This document shows positions 2,810 through 23,708 of a stretch of 64,000 nucleotides of DNA, one piece after another (the first letter of the stretch is position 1; each line of letters starts with the position of its first letter). The position numbers were made by a program, and so were the translations under genes. The stretch comes from Pseudolysinimonas sp. (GTDB lineage Bacteria; Actinomycetota; Actinomycetes; Actinomycetales; Microbacteriaceae): positions 246,522 through 310,521 of the forward strand of contig NZ_JBDSPJ010000022.1 of NCBI RefSeq assembly GCF_039912695.1, written 5' to 3'. Under the pieces are notes generated by a model, which was not told where the DNA came from, did no database searches, and saw only the letters and a list, made by a program, of their open reading frames with translations.

Positions 2810-3345
2810 CGCGTGCCCGCTCCCGGAGCCTTGGGAACGTCGCCGGCTCCGCGGCCCGCGCGATGTTCGGCCGCGAGCGCCTCAGCGTCGATATCGCCGA
2901 ACCAGCCACCTTGAATCGTCTCCGCAATCGTCGTGAGTGCCTCCTCGAAACGCACCCGGTCGTGGAATGTCAACCTCGACGTCGCCCGGTCCTGCAGCGC
3001 GTGCAGCGCCTGCCGCGCGTTGTGCAGGATGTCCCACCCGGCGTCGGTGAGCGACACGAGGCGAACCCGATCGTCGGTCGGATGCGGTTGCGACTCCACC
3101 ACACCGCGCGCGAGAAGTCCGGTCACCAGTTGGTGACTCGCTTGAGGAGTCATGAACGCACGGCGGGCGACCTGAGCCGACGACAGGGGTACGCCTTCGC
3201 CGAGCACCAGAAGCACGTTGAACTCCGCAACGGTGATCCCGGTCTCCCAGGCGATGTCCTCTCCTGCTCGCCCGAGTGCTCGGGCCAGACGCATGACGAC
3301 GTGGTAGAACTCCCGGCTGGCCGGGCCTGCGGCTTCCTGGCTCAT
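2806..3345 (-). CDS. MarR-family transcriptional regulator
   Basis: 179-aa ORF with a winged-helix segment: ITVAEFNVLLVLGEGVPLSSAQVARRAFMTPQASHQLVTGLLARGVVES...DDRVRLVSLTDAG. It has 4-nt overlaps on both sides. Confidence 0.85.
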   Translation of the reverse strand: MSQEAAGPASREFYHVVMRLARALGRAGEDIAWETGITVAEFNVLLVLGEGVPLSSAQVARRAFMTPQASHQLVTGLLARGVVESQPHPTDDRVRLVSLTDAGWDILHNARQALHALQDRATSRLTFHDRVRFEEALTTIAETIQGGWFGDIDAEALAAEHRAGRGAGDVPKAPGAGTR

Positions 3346-19046: not shown

Positions 19047-19799
19047 CTAGCCAGCGGGCGGCACGAGGTGCTCGCGGAAGAACGCGTCAATCCGCTGCCA
19101 GGCATCCGCCGCCGCGTCGGGATTCGGGCCGAACCCCGACACCCGCGCAAACGGGCGGAACACTGCCGGCCCGTTGACGGTGGTGTTCATGAACTGATGG
19201 CCCGCGCCCGGATACTCCTTGAGGTCGTGCGGGATGCCGTGACGGCTGAGGGTGGTCTCCAGCTTTGCGGCGGCGCCCTTCAGCGACCGATCGGCGCCCC
19301 CGTAGCTCCCGACGATCGGGCAGGCGTGCTCGAGTGCGGCATCCAGGTCGCGCGGAAGCAGGCCGTAGTTGCTCGCCGCCGCGTCGAAGCCGTGGTCGGC
19401 AGCGGTCATCAGTGCGAAGCCGCCACCCATGCAGAATCCGATGACACCCACCGAGCCGTTGGCATCCGGGCGTTCGAGCAGCAGGACCCGCGCTGACTCG
19501 ATGTCGGCGTAGGCGCGACCGGTGCCCGATCGAAGCGCGCGTGCCGTCGCAATGAGGCACTTGCGTGTGCCGCCCATCGAGTAGAGGTCGGGCATCAGGG
19601 TCAGGTAGCCGAGGCTCGTGAGCTTCGCCACCTGAAGCCGCATCTGCTCGTCGGCGCCGAATGCCTCGTGCATGACGACGACCGCCGGAAACGGACCCGT
19701 GCCTTCGGGAACCCCGAGTACGCCACGCAGTTCTGGGCTCCCACCCTCGGCACGACCAGGAATGTGGATGTCGCGAAGCTGCGTTGCTGAGACGGCCAT
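19047..19799 (-). CDS. Dienelactone hydrolase family protein
   Basis: 250 aa. FPAVVVMHEAFG and the nucleophile motif GVIGFCMGGGFAL fit this family. Confidence 0.8.
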   Translation of the reverse strand: MAVSATQLRDIHIPGRAEGGSPELRGVLGVPEGTGPFPAVVVMHEAFGADEQMRLQVAKLTSLGYLTLMPDLYSMGGTRKCLIATARALRSGTGRAYADIESARVLLLERPDANGSVGVIGFCMGGGFALMTAADHGFDAAASNYGLLPRDLDAALEHACPIVGSYGGADRSLKGAAAKLETTLSRHGIPHDLKEYPGAGHQFMNTTVNGPAVFRPFARVSGFGPNPDAAADAWQRIDAFFREHLVPPAG

Positions 19800-19810
19800 G
19801 GCCTATCTGA

Positions 19811-20527
19811 TCACGTCGCGGGCAGCGTCGGATGCTTCGGGAGCAACAGACGCAGAAGAACCACACCGATCACCCCGCCCATAACCTGCGCTGCCACGAA
19901 CCCGAGGGCCGACCCAGGCGCGATGCCGGCGAACGTGTCGGAGAACATGCGGCCAACTGTCACGGCCGGATTCGCGAAGGCCGTCGAGCTGGTGAAGAAG
20001 TAGCCGGCTCCGATGTAGGCCGCGACCGCCGGGGCGATCAACGCTTCGCGACCGAAGTTTTCGAGCAGGAACACGACCAACACGAGTCCTGCCGTGGCGA
20101 CGACTTCGGCGAGGGCGTGCGGCCAGCTCCACCGATCGTGGGTGCTGATCGCGACGGGGGCGAGCCCGAACATCAGGTTCGCCAGGATTGCCCCGATGAT
20201 GCCACCCGAAACCTGCGCGAGCAGATACGGCAGCACATCACGAAGCTTGCTCGACCCGAACGCAGCCGCGACCGCGGTGATCGCGGGATTGAGGTGAGCA
20301 CCCGAGAGGGGCGCAAACACCGCAATCAGCACGAACAACCCGAAGGCGGTCGCGAGCGCAGTTTCAAGCAACTGCAGTCCTGCGTCGCCCGGCGAGAGGG
20401 TTTGGGCGGCGATCCCTGACCCGACGACGATCGCGACGAGGAGCAGGGTGCCGAGGAACTCGGCGAGCAGCCGCCGCGGCAGCGGCAATACGTCGGGGAT
20501 CGGCAGGACAGCCATCCTCCGGGTCAC
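19811..20527 (-). CDS. MIP-family aquaglyceroporin (AqpS/GlpF-like)
   Basis: 238 aa with six predicted TM segments and two NPA boxes (HLNPAIT, FANPAVT). It has a 4-nt overlap with arsC. Confidence 0.85.
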   Translation of the reverse strand: MTRRMAVLPIPDVLPLPRRLLAEFLGTLLLVAIVVGSGIAAQTLSPGDAGLQLLETALATAFGLFVLIAVFAPLSGAHLNPAITAVAAAFGSSKLRDVLPYLLAQVSGGIIGAILANLMFGLAPVAISTHDRWSWPHALAEVVATAGLVLVVFLLENFGREALIAPAVAAYIGAGYFFTSSTAFANPAVTVGRMFSDTFAGIAPGSALGFVAAQVMGGVIGVVLLRLLLPKHPTLPAT

Positions 20528-20931
20528 TCCAGGCCGACGAGCAGCCGTTCGACGCGCATCCGGATGTCGTCGCGAATCACGCGTACCTCGTCGATTCCGA
20601 GCCCGGCAGGGTCAGTCAATTCCCAGTCCTCGTAGCGCTTCCCCGGGAAGATCGGGCAGGTGTCGCCGCAGCCCATCGTGATGACCACATCGGAGGCTCG
20701 CACGTCATCCGTCGCGAGAAGTGCCGGGCTCTCTCCGGCGATGTCGATGCCCTCCTCCGCCATCGCGGCGACGGCAACCGGGTTGAGGGATGCCGCGGGC
20801 TCCGACCCGGCGGATAGCACGCGCACGCGATCTCCGGCAAGCGACCGTAGGAAGCCGGCGGCCATCTGGGAGCGGCCCGCGTTGTGCACGCAGACAAACA
20901 GAACGGTGGGGGTCATGGGGGCCTCGCTCAT
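20524..20931 (-). CDS. arsC: Arsenate reductase, LMW-PTP type
   Basis: P-loop VLFVCVHNAGRSQMA (C-x5-R-S) and the downstream block TMGCGDTCP. The start is uncertain among TTG 20946, ATG 20931 and ATG 20916. Confidence 0.8.
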   Translation of the reverse strand: MSEAPMTPTVLFVCVHNAGRSQMAAGFLRSLAGDRVRVLSAGSEPAASLNPVAVAAMAEEGIDIAGESPALLATDDVRASDVVITMGCGDTCPIFPGKRYEDWELTDPAGLGIDEVRVIRDDIRMRVERLLVGLE

Positions 20932-20998
20932 GGTGAACAGTGTCAAGTCAAACAGGGATGGAGCCCGGCCGCCCGCGCGCGACGGCCGGACGGTGAAC

Positions 20999-21070
20999 TC
21001 AGCAGCAGTACGGCTCGCAGAGGTCTTCTGACCCCGGCGGGCAGGCGATCGGGTCGCAGCACTCGCTCAT
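20999..21070 (-). CDS. Unannotated 23-aa cysteine-rich peptide (MSECCDPIACPPGSEDLCEPYCC)
   Basis: ATG 21070 to TGA 20999, below the ORF-track size cutoff. A GGGAG core (within GGAAGGGAG) lies 6 nt upstream of the ATG. 21 of 23 codons end in G/C. It is in an operon-head position upstream of arsC. Confidence 0.4.
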   Translation of the reverse strand: MSECCDPIACPPGSEDLCEPYCC

Positions 21071-21084
21071 GGCGTTCTCCCTTC

Positions 21085-21102
21085 CATCGACGGGTGTCGA
21101 TG
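21085..21102. promoter_or_regulatory. Palindrome CATCGAC-GGGT-GTCGATG, candidate ArsR operator
   Basis: Perfect 7-4-7 inverted repeat in the arsR / mini-ORF divergent region. A third CATCGAT half-site lies at 21121-21127. Confidence 0.35.
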
Positions 21103-21155
21103 TAGTGAGCGTGGCTTAAACATCGATAGTTGTCAATATATGAGAGGATGTCGTC

Positions 21156-21521
21156 ATGCCCGTCGCCACTGCGCCAGCCATCGAGTTGATCCCGCTGCGC
21201 GATCTCGCCGCCTGCTGCGCCCCGCTCACCCGAGCGGCGATCAGCACACCGAATGCCGAGAGCCTGAGCCGCTCACTCAAAGCGCTCGCCGACCCGACGC
21301 GGCTGCGCATCCTGTCGATGGTCGCCGCTCACGACGACGCCGAAGCCTGCGTCTGCGACCTCACCGATCCGCTCGACATCGCGCAACCGACGGTCTCGCA
21401 CCACCTCAAAGTGCTTGTCGACGCCGGGTTTCTGACCCGCAGCAAGCGGGGAACCTGGGCGTACTACCGACTGATCCCCGGCTCGCTCGACACGGTCTCG
21501 GGGCTGCTCGCCTCGGTGTGA
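21156..21521 (+). CDS. arsR: ArsR/SmtB-family metalloregulator
   Basis: 121 aa with the EACVCDL metalloid-binding motif and the HTH segment IAQPTVSHHLKVLVDAGFL. Confidence 0.85.
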   Translation: MPVATAPAIELIPLRDLAACCAPLTRAAISTPNAESLSRSLKALADPTRLRILSMVAAHDDAEACVCDLTDPLDIAQPTVSHHLKVLVDAGFLTRSKRGTWAYYRLIPGSLDTVSGLLASV

Positions 21522-21530
21522 CCGCTTGGG

Positions 21531-22187
21531 TTAGCGCTGCAGCCAAGCCAGCACCGCGAGAACGCGCCGGTGGTCGATGCCGGAATCTTCGAGGCCAAGT
21601 TTGCCGAAGATTGCCGTGACGTTCTTCTCGACTGCGCCGACTCCGATGAACAGGGCCTCGGCGACCGCGACGTTGCTGCGCCCCTCCGCCATCAGCTGCA
21701 GCACCTCGCGCTCGCGCGGGGTCAGGGTCGCCAACGGATCGTGACGCCGCCCGATCAGTTGCGCCACCACCTCCGGGTCGAGCACCGTGCCCCCGTCGGC
21801 GATGCGGTCGATCGCGTCGACCAGTTCGGCGAGTGAGGCGACGCGATCCTTCAGCAGGTAGCCGACTCCACCGCTCCCGCTGCCGAGCAACTCCTGCGCG
21901 TAGGCGACTTCGACGTACTGCGACAGCAACAGGATGCCGGTGCGCGGCACCAGTGACCGCAACCGAATCGCGGCGCGCACCCCCTCATCCCGAAACGTCG
22001 GCGGCATCCGAACGTCGAGCACCGCGAGGTCGGGAGCGAGAGTCTCGACCTCGGCGAGGAGGGCGTCGGCATCCCCATAGGAGCCGACGACCTCGTGCCC
22101 CGCCTCGACCAGCACGCGCACCAACCCCTCGCGCAGCAACACCGAGTCGTCGGCTACCACCACGCGCAGTCCGGTCACCTGTTTCAT
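21531..22187 (-). CDS. NarL/LuxR-family response regulator
   Basis: 218 aa. Receiver domain (VVVADDSVLLREG…LAVLDVRMP) and C-terminal LuxR HTH (LTPREREVLQLMAEGRSNVAVAEAL). Confidence 0.9.
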   Translation of the reverse strand: MKQVTGLRVVVADDSVLLREGLVRVLVEAGHEVVGSYGDADALLAEVETLAPDLAVLDVRMPPTFRDEGVRAAIRLRSLVPRTGILLLSQYVEVAYAQELLGSGSGGVGYLLKDRVASLAELVDAIDRIADGGTVLDPEVVAQLIGRRHDPLATLTPREREVLQLMAEGRSNVAVAEALFIGVGAVEKNVTAIFGKLGLEDSGIDHRRVLAVLAWLQR

Positions 22188-22196
22188 CTTGCCGTT

Positions 22197-22295
22197 CTTT
22201 CCGTTTTCAGGAATCCATGTTGCTGGTGTCTACTGCTGTCCTGTTGTGAGTCCCGTTCCGTCGCAAAACCGCGGACTTTTCCTGAAAACGGAAAG
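22197..22295. repeat. Bipartite inverted-repeat element, copy A (17-bp perfect arms, 65-nt spacer)
   Basis: CTTTCCGTTTTCAGGAA (22197-22213) pairs perfectly with TTCCTGAAAACGGAAAG (22279-22295). The arms are near-identical to those at 56968-57076. The interior is visibly AT-richer than the flanks. Confidence 0.7.
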
Positions 22296-22316
22296 GGACT
22301 CTCGCAGCGAAACGGC

Positions 22317-23708
22317 TCACCCAGCGGATGCCGGGGTGGCGACCGCAACGGGAAGATGCGCGGTCAGCACCGTCGGCCCACCGGCAGGGCTCGACAGGTT
22401 GAGGGTTCCGCCGAGTCCGCGTACGCGCTCCTTGAGGCCGGCGATCCCGTGATCCGCCTTCACCTTCGCTCCGCCTTTGCCGTCGTCGGTGACTTCGATG
22501 TCGAGCCACGTGGCATCCGACTCCGACGCGGCACCAGCAACCTGCCGCAGCGACAGGCGCAGGTCGATCGCGGTCGAGCCGCTGTGCTTCACGGCGTTGG
22601 TGAGACCTTCGGCCGCGATGAAGTAGGCGTTGCGTTCCAGTTCGATCGGCAGGTCGGTACCCGCCGGCAGCGTCGACACCACCCGCACCGTCACCGCACT
22701 GCGCACGGCGAGCGACTCCAGTGCCGCGACCAGGCCGCGGTCGAGCAGGATCGGCGGCGCAAATCCCCGCGACAGCGCACGCAGCTCTTCGAGGGCGTCG
22801 CGCGACTGCTGCGTGGCTTCCGCGATCAGCTTGCGGGCGGCATCCGGATCGGTGTCGAGTTGACGTTCGGCCGCGGCGAGATCCATCTGGAGTCGCACGA
22901 GACGCTGCTGCGGACCATCGTGGATGTCGCGCTCAAGCCGGCGAAGCGCGGTGCCTTCTGCGGCAACCGCAGCCGACCGAGATTCCGACAGATCGGCAAC
23001 CTCACGTTGGAGAGCCTCCGTGCGGAACGCACCGAGCATCCCGCGGGCGATACCCCAGTGCATCCAGGTCAGCCCGCGCAGCACCACCGGCAGCGTCGCC
23101 GTGAACAGCACGCCGAGCACAACGTAGATCGCGAGATCGGCTGTGCGCCCGTCGACCTGCGTGCCGTTGTGCAGCACGACGTCGACAACCCACTGGGAGA
23201 GGGAAAAATCGCGGTCTTGGTTCGGGATGAAGGGGCTCCAGATCCACGCCGTCACTCCACCCAACGCGGTCGCGAACCAGGTGACCGCGATTGTGAACGA
23301 GAACGTCGCGACGATGAAGTTCACGATCGTCGTCCAGACCAGGGAGAGCCAGTAGTGAGCGTTGGCGAACAATGCGCGCAGCCAGGCAAAGAAGCCGGTC
23401 TTCGCGGTGCGGTCGTTCCATTCCGGGAGGCGGATCGCGGGGCGCCCGATCCAGCGCAGCAGTGCGAGGTCCAGCGTGCCCGCGATCCGCGCGAGGTACA
23501 GCGCACCGACCAGGAACACGATGCCCAAGAAGAAGGTCGCGATCGTTCCCGCCGCCGCCGAAACGAAGGTGATCGACAGGCTGAAGGTGACGCAGGCGAT
23601 CGGGAACGCGATCAGCAGGTACGCCAAATCTTTAGGGAGGCCCGCCCAGAGCCGCCAGTAGTGCGGAAGGGTGCGAGGCGGGGTGACTGTGGTCATGGTC
23701 AGCTCCAT
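22317..23708 (-). CDS. Sensor histidine kinase (HisKA_3 type) with N-terminal membrane domain
   Basis: 463 aa. H-box ERDIHDGPQQRLV, N-box AEGLTNAVKHS, G-box region DDGKGG…HGIAGLKERV, and several N-terminal TM segments. Confidence 0.85.
   Translation of the reverse strand: MELTMTTVTPPRTLPHYWRLWAGLPKDLAYLLIAFPIACVTFSLSITFVSAAAGTIATFFLGIVFLVGALYLARIAGTLDLALLRWIGRPAIRLPEWNDRTAKTGFFAWLRALFANAHYWLSLVWTTIVNFIVATFSFTIAVTWFATALGGVTAWIWSPFIPNQDRDFSLSQWVVDVVLHNGTQVDGRTADLAIYVVLGVLFTATLPVVLRGLTWMHWGIARGMLGAFRTEALQREVADLSESRSAAVAAEGTALRRLERDIHDGPQQRLVRLQMDLAAAERQLDTDPDAARKLIAEATQQSRDALEELRALSRGFAPPILLDRGLVAALESLAVRSAVTVRVVSTLPAGTDLPIELERNAYFIAAEGLTNAVKHSGSTAIDLRLSLRQVAGAASESDATWLDIEVTDDGKGGAKVKADHGIAGLKERVRGLGGTLNLSSPAGGPTVLTAHLPVAVATPASAG

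What the first reader, a model, noticed from the sequence alone, without database searches (positions are those of the whole stretch)
20999..21070. Unannotated 23-codon, six-cysteine ORF at the head of the arsC-aquaporin unit (ArsD-like CC-x4-C motif)
A 72-nt minus-strand ORF lies between arsC and the divergent arsR, below the ORF-track cutoff. It runs from ATG 21070 to TGA 20999 and encodes MSECCDPIACPPGSEDLCEPYCC.

Evidence that it is translated:
- A GGGAG core within GGAAGGGAG lies 6 nt upstream of the ATG.
- 21 of 23 codons end in G/C, as in real genes here.
- It sits directly after the candidate ArsR operator (21085-21102).
- It lies 53 to 83 nt upstream of arsC, depending on the arsC start.

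Cys4-Cys5-x4-Cys10 has exactly the spacing of the As(III)-binding Cys12-Cys13-Cys18 triad of the ArsD metallochaperone. The C-terminus is a near mirror image (Cys18-x3-Cys22-Cys23).

A GC hairpin (CCGGCCG-N11-CGGCCGG, 20965-20989) follows the stop.

Possible roles:
- A minimal metalloid-binding or chaperone peptide.
- A metallothionein-like buffer.
- A Cys-rich leader peptide that couples arsC/aqp expression to thiol or Cys-tRNA status through the hairpin.

I know of no described ars component of this size.
Basis: partly seen in the sequence, partly recalled or inferred. Interest (0 to 1): 0.7.

Follow-up and report, generated by a model that had tools for sequence, protein, structure and literature searches.

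The report
ArsR-controlled cysteine-rich micro-peptide gene
The 23-codon ORF is a real, conserved and so far unannotated small gene found next to arsenic-sensing repressor genes in many Actinobacteria; its product most likely traps arsenite on paired cysteines, which would add a new part to bacterial arsenic resistance.

Summary
ATG 21070 to TGA 20999 (minus strand) encodes MSECCDPIACPPGSEDLCEPYCC. It has a strong Shine-Dalgarno site, sits just after a double ArsR operator, and is followed by a GC hairpin.

The ORF is not a chance ORF. I found 19 further short ORFs of the same kind (11-30 codons) in ars loci of Microbacteriaceae, Nocardioidaceae and Actinoplanes. They are acidic, carry 4-8 Cys, and always end Cys-Cys-TGA. 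Typically the two operators lie at fixed distances (-67 and -30/31) from the ATG.

- **Frequency:** of 12 ArsR relatives looked up, 9 carry an intact copy, 1 a frameshifted copy and 2 none.
- **Selection:** Cys codons never change, substitutions cluster at third codon positions, and length differences are whole codons.
- **Annotation:** none of these ORFs is annotated in any library searched, and I found no paper describing them.

In at least 4 loci the ORF is monocistronic, and in 2 it has no hairpin. It stays with arsR, not with arsC. This argues against a leader-peptide attenuator and for a functional peptide.

The best reading is an ArsR-derepressed As(III)-binding peptide, a micro-metallothionein or chaperone. 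The arrangement parallels smtB/smtA. Binding and translation are inferred, not shown. The ArsD-like CC-x4-C spacing holds only in the closest subfamily, and there is no homology to ArsD.

The parts
20999..21070 (-). Small ORF, 23 codons plus TGA: MSECCDPIACPPGSEDLCEPYCC. It is an acidic peptide with six Cys and a Cys-Cys C-terminus.
   Evidence: Searches give the sequence. Homologues lie at the same position in 19 other loci. Alignment A1 has C4, C5, C22 and C23 invariant. Substitutions show a third-position excess.
21077..21085 (-). Shine-Dalgarno sequence GGAAGGGAG, 6 nt before the ATG.
   Evidence: A GGAGG-like core lies 2-8 nt upstream of the start in all 20 family members.
21085..21102 (.). 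Proximal ArsR operator, the inverted repeat CATCGAC-N4-GTCGATG. It lies about 30 nt before the ATG and probably overlaps the transcription start.
   Evidence: It sits at a fixed -30/31 from the ATG in 15 of 20 loci. Binding by ArsR is inferred.
21122..21137 (.). Distal ArsR operator ATTGAC-N4-ATCGAT. It contains a TTGACA -35-like hexamer (21136-21131, minus strand) for the sORF promoter.
   Evidence: fixed at -66 to -68 from the ATG in most loci. The promoter assignment is inferred; the simple sigma-70 scan found no canonical promoter.
20963..20991 (-). GC-rich hairpin, 11-bp stem and 7-nt loop, starting 7-9 nt after the stop codon. It has no U tract. It is probably a terminator, partial terminator or mRNA 3' stabiliser.
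   Evidence: about -25 kcal/mol, with hairpins in the first 10 loci examined; hairpins in all but L204 and L215 of the 19 loci where the flank is held (L207's contig ends 11 nt after the stop); 11 consensus pairs, 5 of them with compensatory changes, in 10 homologous loci. It lacks a T tail.
21156..21521 (+). arsR, a divergently transcribed ArsR/SmtB-family repressor of 121 aa with an N-terminal Cys-Cys and a CVC motif.
   Evidence: HTH_5 1e-16, metalloregulator ArsR/SmtB 3.7e-27. It is the gene that the sORF always accompanies.
20524..20916 (-). arsC, a low-molecular-weight phosphatase-type arsenate reductase. ATG 20916 is the likely start.
   Evidence: LMWPc 3e-20. The start is inferred from alignment with L201.
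19811..20527 (-). MIP-family channel (AqpS-like). Its start overlaps the arsC stop by 4 nt.
   Evidence: MIP 1e-27.

Best explanation
The ORF is a real, translated small gene. It is one member of a previously unannotated family of 11-30-residue acidic, cysteine-rich peptides that end in Cys-Cys.

**Regulation.** The gene is transcribed divergently from arsR. Its promoter is covered by two ArsR operators, so it is repressed without metalloid and switched on when As(III) releases ArsR.

**Proposed function.** The peptide most likely binds As(III), and probably Sb(III), through its vicinal thiols. As(III) takes three thiolates, so six Cys could hold up to two As(III) per peptide. It would act as a micro-metallothionein: a cytosolic buffer, or a hand-off chaperone, for arsenite made by ArsC or entering through the MIP channel. 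This is the arsenic counterpart of the smtB/smtA repressor-metallothionein pair.

**Hairpin.** The GC hairpin after the stop ends or stabilises a short, abundant sORF transcript. It lets a fraction of transcription read through into arsC-MIP where those genes follow.

**Shown here:**
- the ORF, its Shine-Dalgarno site, operators and hairpin;
- their conservation;
- purifying selection on the reading frame and the Cys codons;
- linkage to arsR and independence from downstream genes.

**Inferred:** translation, ArsR control, As(III) binding, and the physiological role.
For: **1. A conserved family.** There are 20 sORFs in all.
- Every one has an ATG or GTG start, a TGA stop, a Shine-Dalgarno core 2-8 nt upstream, 4-8 Cys and a net negative charge, and ends Cys-Cys-stop.
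- In 15 of 20, operators lie at fixed -67 and -30/31 from the ATG.

**2. Selection on coding.**
- Window versus L201 differs at codon positions 1/2/3 by 1/2/6. L028 versus L204 differs by 3/4/10.
- In L202, L203 and L208 the 36-nt ORF is 34/36 invariant while the flanking spacer and the loop diverge.
- L019 keeps E-C-C through GAA/TGT/TGT synonymous codons.
- Length differences are whole codons. C4, C5, C22 and C23 are invariant.

**3. Linkage to arsR, not to cargo.** Of 12 ArsR relatives (72-93% identity) looked up blind, 9 have an intact sORF. What lies downstream varies:

| Downstream of the sORF | Loci |
|---|---|
| arsC | 10 loci |
| a convergent gene, so the sORF is monocistronic | L120, L101, L208 |
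| an arsC remnant, then a convergent gene | L206 |
| not ars genes: GlpD-type oxidase, alkane hydroxylase-rubredoxin, SMR pumps, a 55-aa ORF | L034, L049, L202, L203 |

**4. The same double-operator region drives ACR3, arsC or a flavoprotein directly in other loci** (L031, L044, L051, L078, L042). It is therefore an As-responsive control region, and the sORF is an optional first gene behind it.

**5. Chemistry.**
- A 10-residue peptide with CC-x5-C from AfArsR forms a defined 1:1 AsS3 complex (PMC11212059).
- ArsD uses C12-C13-C18.
- Larger proteins in these same loci carry C-terminal CC tails.

**6. Precedent.** The metallothionein gene smtA is divergently transcribed from, and repressed by, the ArsR-family protein SmtB (PMC4307280).

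**7. Hairpin.** It is structurally conserved, with compensatory changes in 5 of 11 pairs.
Against: - There is no direct evidence of translation, of a stable peptide, or of As(III) binding.
- Peptides of 11-23 residues are usually degraded quickly.
- An intracellular sink combined with a passive MIP channel could increase arsenic uptake rather than lower it.
- The sORF is dispensable. Close arsR<>arsC loci lack it (L001, L004, L009, L078, L214) and one copy is frameshifted (L213).
- Non-Cys positions vary widely, which is also what a codon-sensing leader would show.
- The association with MIP channels (5 of 6 against 22 of 74, Fisher p = 0.015) is weak and not corrected for phylogeny.
- ArsR/SmtB repressors sense many metals, so the ligand could be another thiophilic ion.
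Confidence: 0.55

Rival explanations
1. Cysteine-codon leader peptide (attenuator). Ribosomes pausing at the Cys-Cys codons when Cys-tRNA or thiol pools are depleted by arsenite would prevent or allow formation of the downstream hairpin. This would tune read-through or translation of arsC-MIP.
For: - The sORF is the first cistron, has consecutive Cys codons at both ends, and its non-Cys residues vary.
- A conserved hairpin starts 0-11 nt after the stop, within reach of a terminating ribosome.
- There is a precedent: polycysteine sORF attenuators in mycobacteria (bioRxiv 10.1101/834739).
Against: - Four loci have no co-directional downstream gene: L120, L101, L208 and L206.
- Four have downstream genes that are not ars genes.
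- L204/L205 and L215 have no hairpin, and arsC starts 20-26 nt after the stop.
- The whole leader folds no better than shuffled sequence (z = -0.62), and the arsC Shine-Dalgarno site is unpaired in the minimum-energy fold.
- No alternative antiterminator pairing was seen.
- The hairpin has no U tract.
- The sORF is led by a Shine-Dalgarno site, not leaderless.
- The cargo is not cysteine metabolism.
Confidence: 0.12
2. Functional Cys-rich peptide with a different job. It could be a metallothionein for another thiophilic metal (Cd, Zn, Cu, Hg). It could be a thiol or redox partner that supplies reducing equivalents to the LMW-phosphatase-type ArsC. Or it could be a feedback modulator that competes with ArsR for As(III).
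For: - The evidence that the peptide is the selected product is the same as for the main explanation.
- ArsR/SmtB repressors sense diverse metals.
- In the Leifsonia-type loci (L206, L213) arsC is lost, and a His-rich EamA transporter lies beside arsR.
- In L202 the sORF precedes SMR pumps.
Against: - Half of the loci pair the sORF with arsC, and most also carry an AqpS-like MIP.
- The ArsR proteins carry the N-terminal Cys-Cys typical of As(III) sensors (the family knowledge is from memory).
- Vicinal Cys-Cys pairs are the hallmark of As(III) sites in ArsD, ArsR and other ars proteins.
Confidence: 0.15
3. Nascent-peptide metalloid sensor. As(III) would bind the Cys pairs of the nascent chain and arrest the ribosome at the invariable Cys-Cys-UGA end, much as TnaC arrests at its stop codon. 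The arrested ribosome would mask the hairpin and control transcript fate.
For: All 20 members have an invariant Cys-Cys-TGA terminus, with the hairpin immediately downstream in most.
Against: - The objections to cis regulation are the same as for the attenuator rival: monocistronic loci and loci without a hairpin.
- TGA is simply the common stop in high-GC genomes.
- There is no conserved arrest motif apart from Cys.
- The idea is purely speculative.
Confidence: 0.05
4. Not a gene. The conserved DNA would be only the operator-promoter plus a terminator for arsR-side transcription, and the ORF would be incidental.
For: - No gene caller or database lists it.
- It is absent from some close relatives.
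- One copy is frameshifted.
Against: - The frame, the ATG, the Shine-Dalgarno spacing, the Cys codons and the CC-TGA end are kept across three actinobacterial families, while sequence and length between the Cys residues change by whole codons.
- Substitutions are enriched at third positions.
- The ORF is more conserved than its immediate flanks.
- It is unique in 64 kb.
Confidence: 0.05

Closest known systems
smtB/smtA locus of Synechococcus PCC 7942: an ArsR/SmtB-family repressor with a divergently transcribed metallothionein gene
   Same: A small Cys-rich metal-binding product is encoded divergently from an ArsR-family repressor, and is repressed by it through operators in the shared intergenic region (PMC4307280). 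The architecture is the same here.
   Different: - SmtA is 56 aa (from memory) with a folded Zn/Cd cluster, and has its own Pfam family.
- The peptides here are 11-30 aa, match no Pfam or NCBIfam model, sit in ars loci, and have vicinal Cys-Cys pairs suited to As(III).
ArsD arsenic metallochaperone
   Same: Both have vicinal cysteines. The CC-x4-C spacing of ArsD C12-C13-C18 (PDB 3MWH) recurs in the CCDPxxCPP subfamily, which includes the window peptide. ArsD also has C-terminal Cys-Cys pairs (from memory).
   Different: - ArsD is a protein of about 120 aa with a thioredoxin fold that partners with the ArsA ATPase.
- The peptide shows no homology to it, and there is no arsA next to the sORF in the window.
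- The spacing is not conserved across the family.
As(III)-binding segment of AfArsR (CC-x5-C) and its 10-residue model peptide
   Same: A short unstructured peptide with a Cys-Cys pair plus one more Cys binds As(III) 1:1 as AsS3 and becomes ordered (PMC11212059). This is the chemistry proposed for the sORF peptides.
   Different: That segment is part of a repressor protein, not a free gene product. The model peptide is synthetic.
Polycysteine leaderless sORF attenuators of mycobacteria (Canestrari et al., bioRxiv 10.1101/834739)
   Same: Both are unannotated actinobacterial sORFs with consecutive Cys codons, placed as the first cistron.
   Different: - Those are leaderless, constitutively transcribed, control cysteine and mycothiol genes in cis, and need an RBS-sequestering duplex.
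- These are led by a Shine-Dalgarno site, sit behind ArsR operators, are often monocistronic, and show no sequestering duplex.
Phytochelatins, (gamma-Glu-Cys)n-Gly
   Same: Both are short acidic Cys-rich peptides. Phytochelatins chelate As(III) in plants and fungi (from memory). Compositions such as DEECGCICC and ECCDPECCDPDCC resemble them.
   Different: Phytochelatins are made enzymatically from glutathione with gamma-linkages. These peptides are ribosomally encoded.
MymT, the small copper metallothionein of mycobacteria
   Same: It is a small Cys-rich actinobacterial metal-binding protein that annotation overlooked (mentioned in PMC11672702; details from memory).
   Different: It is 53 aa (from memory), binds Cu(I), is not in ars loci, and has no sequence similarity.

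Membership tests
ArsD metallochaperone (Pfam ArsD family) | Sequence or fold homology to the ~120-aa thioredoxin-like ArsD domain | tested here: not met
   There is no Pfam or NCBIfam hit at E<=1 and no PDB sequence hit at E<=10. The peptide is only 23 aa.
ArsD metallochaperone (Pfam ArsD family) | Cys12-Cys13-Cys18 As(III) site (CC-x4-C) | tested here: inconclusive
   The spacing is present in the window peptide and 7 relatives. Other members have x3, x5 or CCxCC. The ArsD motif was verified on 3MWH. A shared spacing is not evidence of homology.
ArsD metallochaperone (Pfam ArsD family) | Genetic pairing with arsA | tested here: not met
   The genes flanking the window sORF are arsR, arsC, a MIP channel and a dienelactone hydrolase. 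No ArsA lies adjacent to the sORF in the window.
Polycysteine leader-sORF attenuators (Cys 'ribulon') | At least two consecutive Cys codons in a short ORF at the 5' end of the transcript | tested here: met
   All 20 members have at least one Cys-Cys pair and lie directly behind the promoter-operator region.
Polycysteine leader-sORF attenuators (Cys 'ribulon') | Leaderless mRNA (transcript starts at the RUG start codon) | tested here: not met
   A GGAGG-type Shine-Dalgarno site lies 2-8 nt upstream in all 20 members, and an operator lies between the -35-like element and the ATG. The transcription start itself has not been mapped.
Polycysteine leader-sORF attenuators (Cys 'ribulon') | Controls co-directional downstream operon genes (cysteine or mycothiol metabolism) in cis | tested here: not met
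   There is no downstream co-directional gene in L120, L101, L208 and L206. Neighbours are not ars genes in L034, L049, L202 and L203. The cargo elsewhere is arsC, not cysteine metabolism.
Polycysteine leader-sORF attenuators (Cys 'ribulon') | RNA duplex that sequesters the downstream ribosome-binding site unless a ribosome stalls in the sORF | tested here: not met
   The minimum-energy fold of the window leader leaves the arsC Shine-Dalgarno region unpaired. The fold is no better than shuffled sequence, z = -0.62. L204 and L215 have no hairpin at all.
Bacterial metallothioneins (SmtA/BmtA type, MymT) | Sequence membership of a described metallothionein family | tested here: not met
   No Pfam or NCBIfam model matches. 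No PDB sequence matches.
Bacterial metallothioneins (SmtA/BmtA type, MymT) | Small, Cys-rich, few or no aromatic or basic residues | tested here: met
   Members are 11-30 aa, 13-54% Cys and net charge -1 to -7.
Bacterial metallothioneins (SmtA/BmtA type, MymT) | Expression controlled by a metal-sensing ArsR/SmtB repressor from a divergent promoter | tested here: inconclusive
   The architecture is present: divergent arsR, with two inverted-repeat operators at fixed distance in 15 of 20 loci. Actual repression and induction cannot be tested here.
Bacterial metallothioneins (SmtA/BmtA type, MymT) | Binds metal or metalloid ions through thiolate clusters | not testable with these tools
   This needs peptide chemistry (UV, ITC, EXAFS). 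The only support is by analogy, from the AfArsR model peptide.
Canonical intrinsic terminator | GC-rich stem-loop followed by a U tract | tested here: not met
   The stem-loop is present and conserved, but no T run follows it, and the terminator scan finds nothing.
RiPP precursor peptide | Adjacent maturation enzymes (radical SAM, cyclodehydratase, lanthipeptide synthetase, protease or exporter) | tested here: not met
   The neighbours are arsR, arsC, MIP and unrelated housekeeping genes. No modifying enzyme recurs.

The most novel reading that the evidence does not exclude
Actinobacteria encode a widespread, entirely unannotated class of ribosomally made, phytochelatin-like micro-peptides of 11-30 aa that end in Cys-Cys. 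An arsenite-sensing ArsR switches them on, and they chelate or chaperone As(III). They would be the smallest gene-encoded metallothioneins known and a new component of arsenic resistance. The class would be a module (operators, Shine-Dalgarno site, sORF, hairpin) that moves with arsR independently of arsC or any pump.
Probability: 0.5. Interest if true: 0.8.

Novelty: new variant of a known kind. Interest (0 to 1): 0.7.

Why it matters
If the peptide is made and binds arsenite, ars loci contain a component that twenty-five years of annotation have missed because it is below gene-caller length limits.

- **A native arsenic metallothionein.** It would be the first native bacterial "arsenic metallothionein". 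It would show how cells with only a passive MIP channel might cope with arsenite produced by ArsC.
- **A testable small-protein case.** It would give a clean example in small-protein biology, where the central question is whether the peptide or the act of translation is the function. Natural monocistronic variants already exist to address that.
- **Practical uses.** It would provide naturally evolved 11-23-residue As(III)-binding tags for biosensors and bioremediation.

Cultured carriers make the idea directly testable: Leifsonia bigeumensis, Gryllotalpicola koreensis JCM 17591 and Nocardioides sp. Root240.

Tried and rejected
**Database searches that found nothing**
- Pfam and NCBIfam on the peptide: no hit.
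- The search for homologous proteins refuses queries under 40 aa. A concatenation of four family members found no candidate in 5.8 billion clusters.
- Exact look-up of 10 peptide variants among 15 billion proteins: none present.
- tblastn against 72,556 plasmids: no match. The low-complexity filter may contribute to this.
- PDB sequence search: none.
- Rfam on 20800-21300: none.
- Consensus sigma-70 promoter and terminator scan: nothing. This is expected for a high-GC actinobacterium.

**Analyses that gave weak or negative results**
- Folding the whole leader: not more stable than shuffled sequence. I therefore dropped the idea of an elaborate riboregulator.
- MIP association: suggestive only (p = 0.015).

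**Literature**
- Six literature searches ran, one aimed at the mycobacterial polycysteine sORF precedent and four at any description of such a peptide in ars loci. I also read an ars-gene review. None describes such a peptide. One search failed on syntax.

**Candidates from the scans that I set aside**
- Many 'CC' hits in the six-frame scans are C-termini of larger proteins or arginine-rich alternative frames.
- The metagenome pattern scan returned mostly unrelated hits. Only L101, L120 and L136 (plus the L075-type copies L170, L182 and L185) were genuine.

**Hypotheses rejected**
- RiPP precursor: no maturation genes nearby.
- ArsD homologue: no homology.
Full report
**1. The observation**

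On the minus strand, ATG 21070 to TGA 20999 encodes MSECCDPIACPPGSEDLCEPYCC.
- GGAAGGGAG (21085-21077) lies 6 nt before the ATG.
- 21 of 23 codons end in G or C.
- The inverted repeat CATCGAC-N4-GTCGATG occupies 21102-21085. A second related site, ATTGAC-N4-ATCGAT, occupies 21137-21122.
- The degenerate operator pattern occurs only at these two places in 64 kb, against 0.05 expected.
- A GC hairpin follows the stop. The core is 20989-20965, and RNAfold gives an 11-bp stem at 20991-20963 of about -25 kcal/mol.

- a divergent ArsR-family gene (21156-21521, +);
- an LMW-phosphatase-type arsC (minus strand; ATG 20916 is the best start by comparison with L201);
- a MIP channel whose start overlaps the arsC stop;
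- a dienelactone hydrolase 11 nt further on.

The ORF is the only stop-to-stop segment of at least 20 codons in the window that ends in Cys-Cys. It is also the only short acidic ORF with 4 or more Cys.

**2. It is a conserved gene, not a chance ORF**

I collected related loci by three independent routes.

*Route a: 80 genomes carrying close ArsC homologues.*
- L019, L028 and L002 (all Microbacteriaceae) have an ORF at exactly the same place.
- The layout is operator, Shine-Dalgarno site, ATG, Cys-rich ORF ending TGC-TGC-TGA, hairpin, arsC.
- L034 and L049 (Nocardioidaceae) have shorter versions divergent from an arsR-MIP-arsC operon.
- L075 (Actinoplanes) has an 8-Cys version behind a MerR-family gene.

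*Route b: a metagenome scan for GAGTGCTGCGA-N15-45-TGCTGCTGA.*
- The hits were mostly irrelevant, but three new operator-linked sORFs emerged: L101, L120 and L136.
- The scan also found three more copies of the L075 type: L170, L182 and L185.

*Route c: twelve ArsR proteins, 72-93% identical to the window's, looked up blind for their genomic context.*
- 9 have an intact sORF divergent from arsR.
- 1 has the same sORF with a 1-nt deletion (L213).
- 2 have none (L209, L214).

The 20 sORFs in the table share these features:
- an ATG start (GTG in one) and a TGA stop;
- a GGAGG-type Shine-Dalgarno site 2-8 nt upstream;
- 11-30 codons with 4-8 Cys;
- a net negative charge;
- an invariable Cys-Cys-stop end.

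In 15 of them the two operators lie at -66 to -74 and -28 to -35 from the ATG, most often at -67 and -30/31.

**3. Evidence that the reading frame is under selection**

- Window versus L201 (ArsR 93% identical): differences at codon positions 1/2/3 are 1/2/6, with 4 synonymous codon changes and 3 replacements.
- L028 versus L204: 3/4/10.
- L202, L203 and L208: the 36-nt ORF is 34/36 invariant, while the SD-ATG spacer, the post-stop spacer and the hairpin loop diverge.
- L019 keeps Glu-Cys-Cys with GAA-TGT-TGT where the others use GAG-TGC-TGC.
- In the alignment of 11 members, C4, C5, C22 and C23 are invariant, and D6 and C10 nearly so. All length differences are whole codons.
- No Cys codon differs in any close pair.

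**4. Peptide or leader?**

The loci themselves help decide it, because the sORF stays with arsR and not with what lies downstream.

| What follows the sORF | Loci |
|---|---|
| arsC | window, L201, L216, L028, L136, L204, L211, L019, L215, L002 |
| Hairpin, then a convergent gene (sORF is monocistronic) | L120 (convergent arsC-MIP), L101 (YchF-like GTPase), L208 |
| Truncated arsC remnant, then a convergent gene; the sORF is intact | L206 (Leifsonia bigeumensis) |
| Not ars genes | L034 (GlpD-type oxidase), L049 (alkane hydroxylase-rubredoxin), L202 (two SMR pumps), L203 (a 55-aa ORF) |

- L204/L205 and L215 have no hairpin, and arsC starts 20-26 nt after the stop.
- The window leader as a whole folds no better than shuffled sequence (z = -0.62), and its minimum-energy fold leaves the arsC Shine-Dalgarno site free.
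- I saw no alternative pairing, and Rfam has no match.

A cis-acting attenuator that has nothing to attenuate in a fifth of its occurrences is unlikely. A small gene whose product is the point explains all the arrangements.

Where present, the hairpin is itself conserved. In 10 homologous loci there are 11 consensus pairs, 5 of them with compensatory double changes, and the loops are free to vary. It has no U tract. I read it as a factor-assisted or partial terminator, or a 3' stabiliser, that yields a short abundant transcript. That reading is an inference.

**5. What the peptide most likely does**

The control region is a standard As-responsive one. The same pair of operators drives ACR3, arsC or a flavoprotein directly in L031, L044, L051, L078 and L042.

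The ArsR proteins have the N-terminal Cys-Cys typical of actinobacterial As(III) sensors. The sequence is; the family knowledge is from memory.

The peptides are little more than acidic residues and vicinal cysteines (ECCD, DEECGCICC, CCDPECCDPDCC).

As(III) binds three thiolates:
- a synthetic 10-mer with CC-x5-C from AfArsR forms a defined 1:1 AsS3 complex (PMC11212059);
- ArsD uses C12-C13-C18;
- several larger proteins in these loci end in similar CC tails.

The regulatory layout duplicates smtB/smtA, where an ArsR-family repressor controls a divergent metallothionein gene (PMC4307280).

I therefore propose an ArsR-derepressed As(III)-binding micro-metallothionein or chaperone. It would hold up to two As(III) per six-Cys peptide and buffer arsenite produced by ArsC, or entering through the MIP channel, until it leaves the cell.

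The sORF loci are enriched for MIP channels (5 of 6 against 22 of 74, p = 0.015). This is weak and not corrected for phylogeny.

Translation, ArsR control and binding have not been shown.

**6. Points against, and limits**

- The module is optional. Close arsR<>arsC loci lack it as a whole (L001, L004, L009, L078, L214).
- One copy is frameshifted, in a lineage that has also lost arsC (L213).
- Very small peptides are usually unstable.
- A cytosolic sink combined with a passive channel could raise arsenic load.
- The ligand might be another thiophilic metal.
- The variable non-Cys residues would also suit a codon-sensing leader.

**7. Comparison with what is known**

- **ArsD:** not a homologue. 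There is no Pfam or PDB similarity. The CC-x4-C spacing is right for the window peptide and its closest subfamily but is not conserved family-wide.
- **Mycobacterial polycysteine attenuators:** fails their defining features. It is led by a Shine-Dalgarno site, is operator-controlled, is often monocistronic, and has no sequestering duplex.
- **Metallothioneins:** works like one under SmtB-type control but belongs to no described metallothionein family.

None of ten peptide variants exists in a 15-billion-protein collection. A composite query found nothing among 5.8 billion clusters. Four literature searches for such a peptide and an ars-gene review mention nothing like it. These searches cover open-access text only.

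**8. Verdict**

I rate the finding as a new variant of a known kind, namely a repressor-coupled Cys-rich metal-binding peptide. It is well supported as a real gene family and is directly testable in cultured strains. Interest is 0.7.

Noticed in passing
L213 2767-2913 (minus strand), compared with L206 2848-2913: L213 carries the Leifsonia-type sORF with a single-base deletion (ACC TGT becomes AC TGT). This turns it into a 48-aa read-through ORF, which the gene caller did call. In both L213 and L206 arsC is missing or reduced to a remnant. This is either decay of the unit in that lineage or an assembly error.
   Followed up: partly
L009 3405-4718; L087, L107, L115, L160 and L198 (C-termini); L104 about 1135-1194: Larger proteins carry Cys-Cys C-terminal tails that resemble the sORF peptides. 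One is a pyridine-nucleotide-disulfide oxidoreductase beside arsC that ends ...VLPETGVCSTDLATAASCC. The others come from the metagenome pattern scan: a ~300-aa membrane protein ending ...RECCDATAPRVECC, and a protein, possibly ArsI-like, ending ...ECCEG...ACC. The micro-peptides may be free-standing versions of such metalloid-binding tails.
   Followed up: partly
L075 3402-5397; also L170, L182, L185: In Actinoplanes a MerR-family gene is followed by a 29-32-codon, 8-Cys sORF (..RCCDPECCDPDCCDSDCC). After it come an ArsR-LMW-phosphatase fusion, a second LMW phosphatase and a pyridine-nucleotide-disulfide oxidoreductase. This is a different regulatory context for the same kind of peptide.
   Followed up: partly
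window 19047-20527 and 21531-23708: The arsC stop overlaps the MIP start (ATGA at 20524-20527). A dienelactone-hydrolase gene starts 11 nt after the MIP stop, so it may belong to the same operon. The GerE-type response regulator and HisKA_3 kinase to the right of arsR are syntenic with L202, L203 and L208. There the sORF is the 11-codon M[NY]DEECGCICC form and arsC-MIP are absent.
   Followed up: partly
L083 (minus strand, oriented about 1150-1242): A metagenome contig has a 28-codon ORF, MSVKCDCPDCDCTECCECCDCCKEKCCC (12 Cys). It could be another unannotated metallothionein-like micro-ORF. Its context was not examined.
   Followed up: no
L109, L119, L141, L161, L132, L194, L197, L184: Several metagenome contigs contain tandem GAGTGCTGC-type repeats that read as (ECC)n in one frame. 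They look like simple-sequence DNA rather than genes, and they account for many of the pattern-scan hits.
   Followed up: no
L206 3930-4976 and L213 4003-5049 (minus strand): An EamA-family transporter lies beside arsR in the Leifsonia-type loci. Its C-terminus is strikingly His-rich (...HTHDEHHQHDH...HEHAHEALTHTHEHYPDAHHRHGH). This hints that this ArsR-sORF pair may respond to metals other than arsenic in that lineage.
   Followed up: no
L209 about 2929-3000 (arsR upstream): This locus has no sORF. The 72-nt arsR-acetyltransferase spacer reads ...TTGACAGGTATCGATGTCTTGAACAGACTGCTGCTGAACAG.... The -10-like CAGACT runs straight into GCTGCTGA. This may be the scar of a deletion that removed the sORF body.
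   Followed up: no
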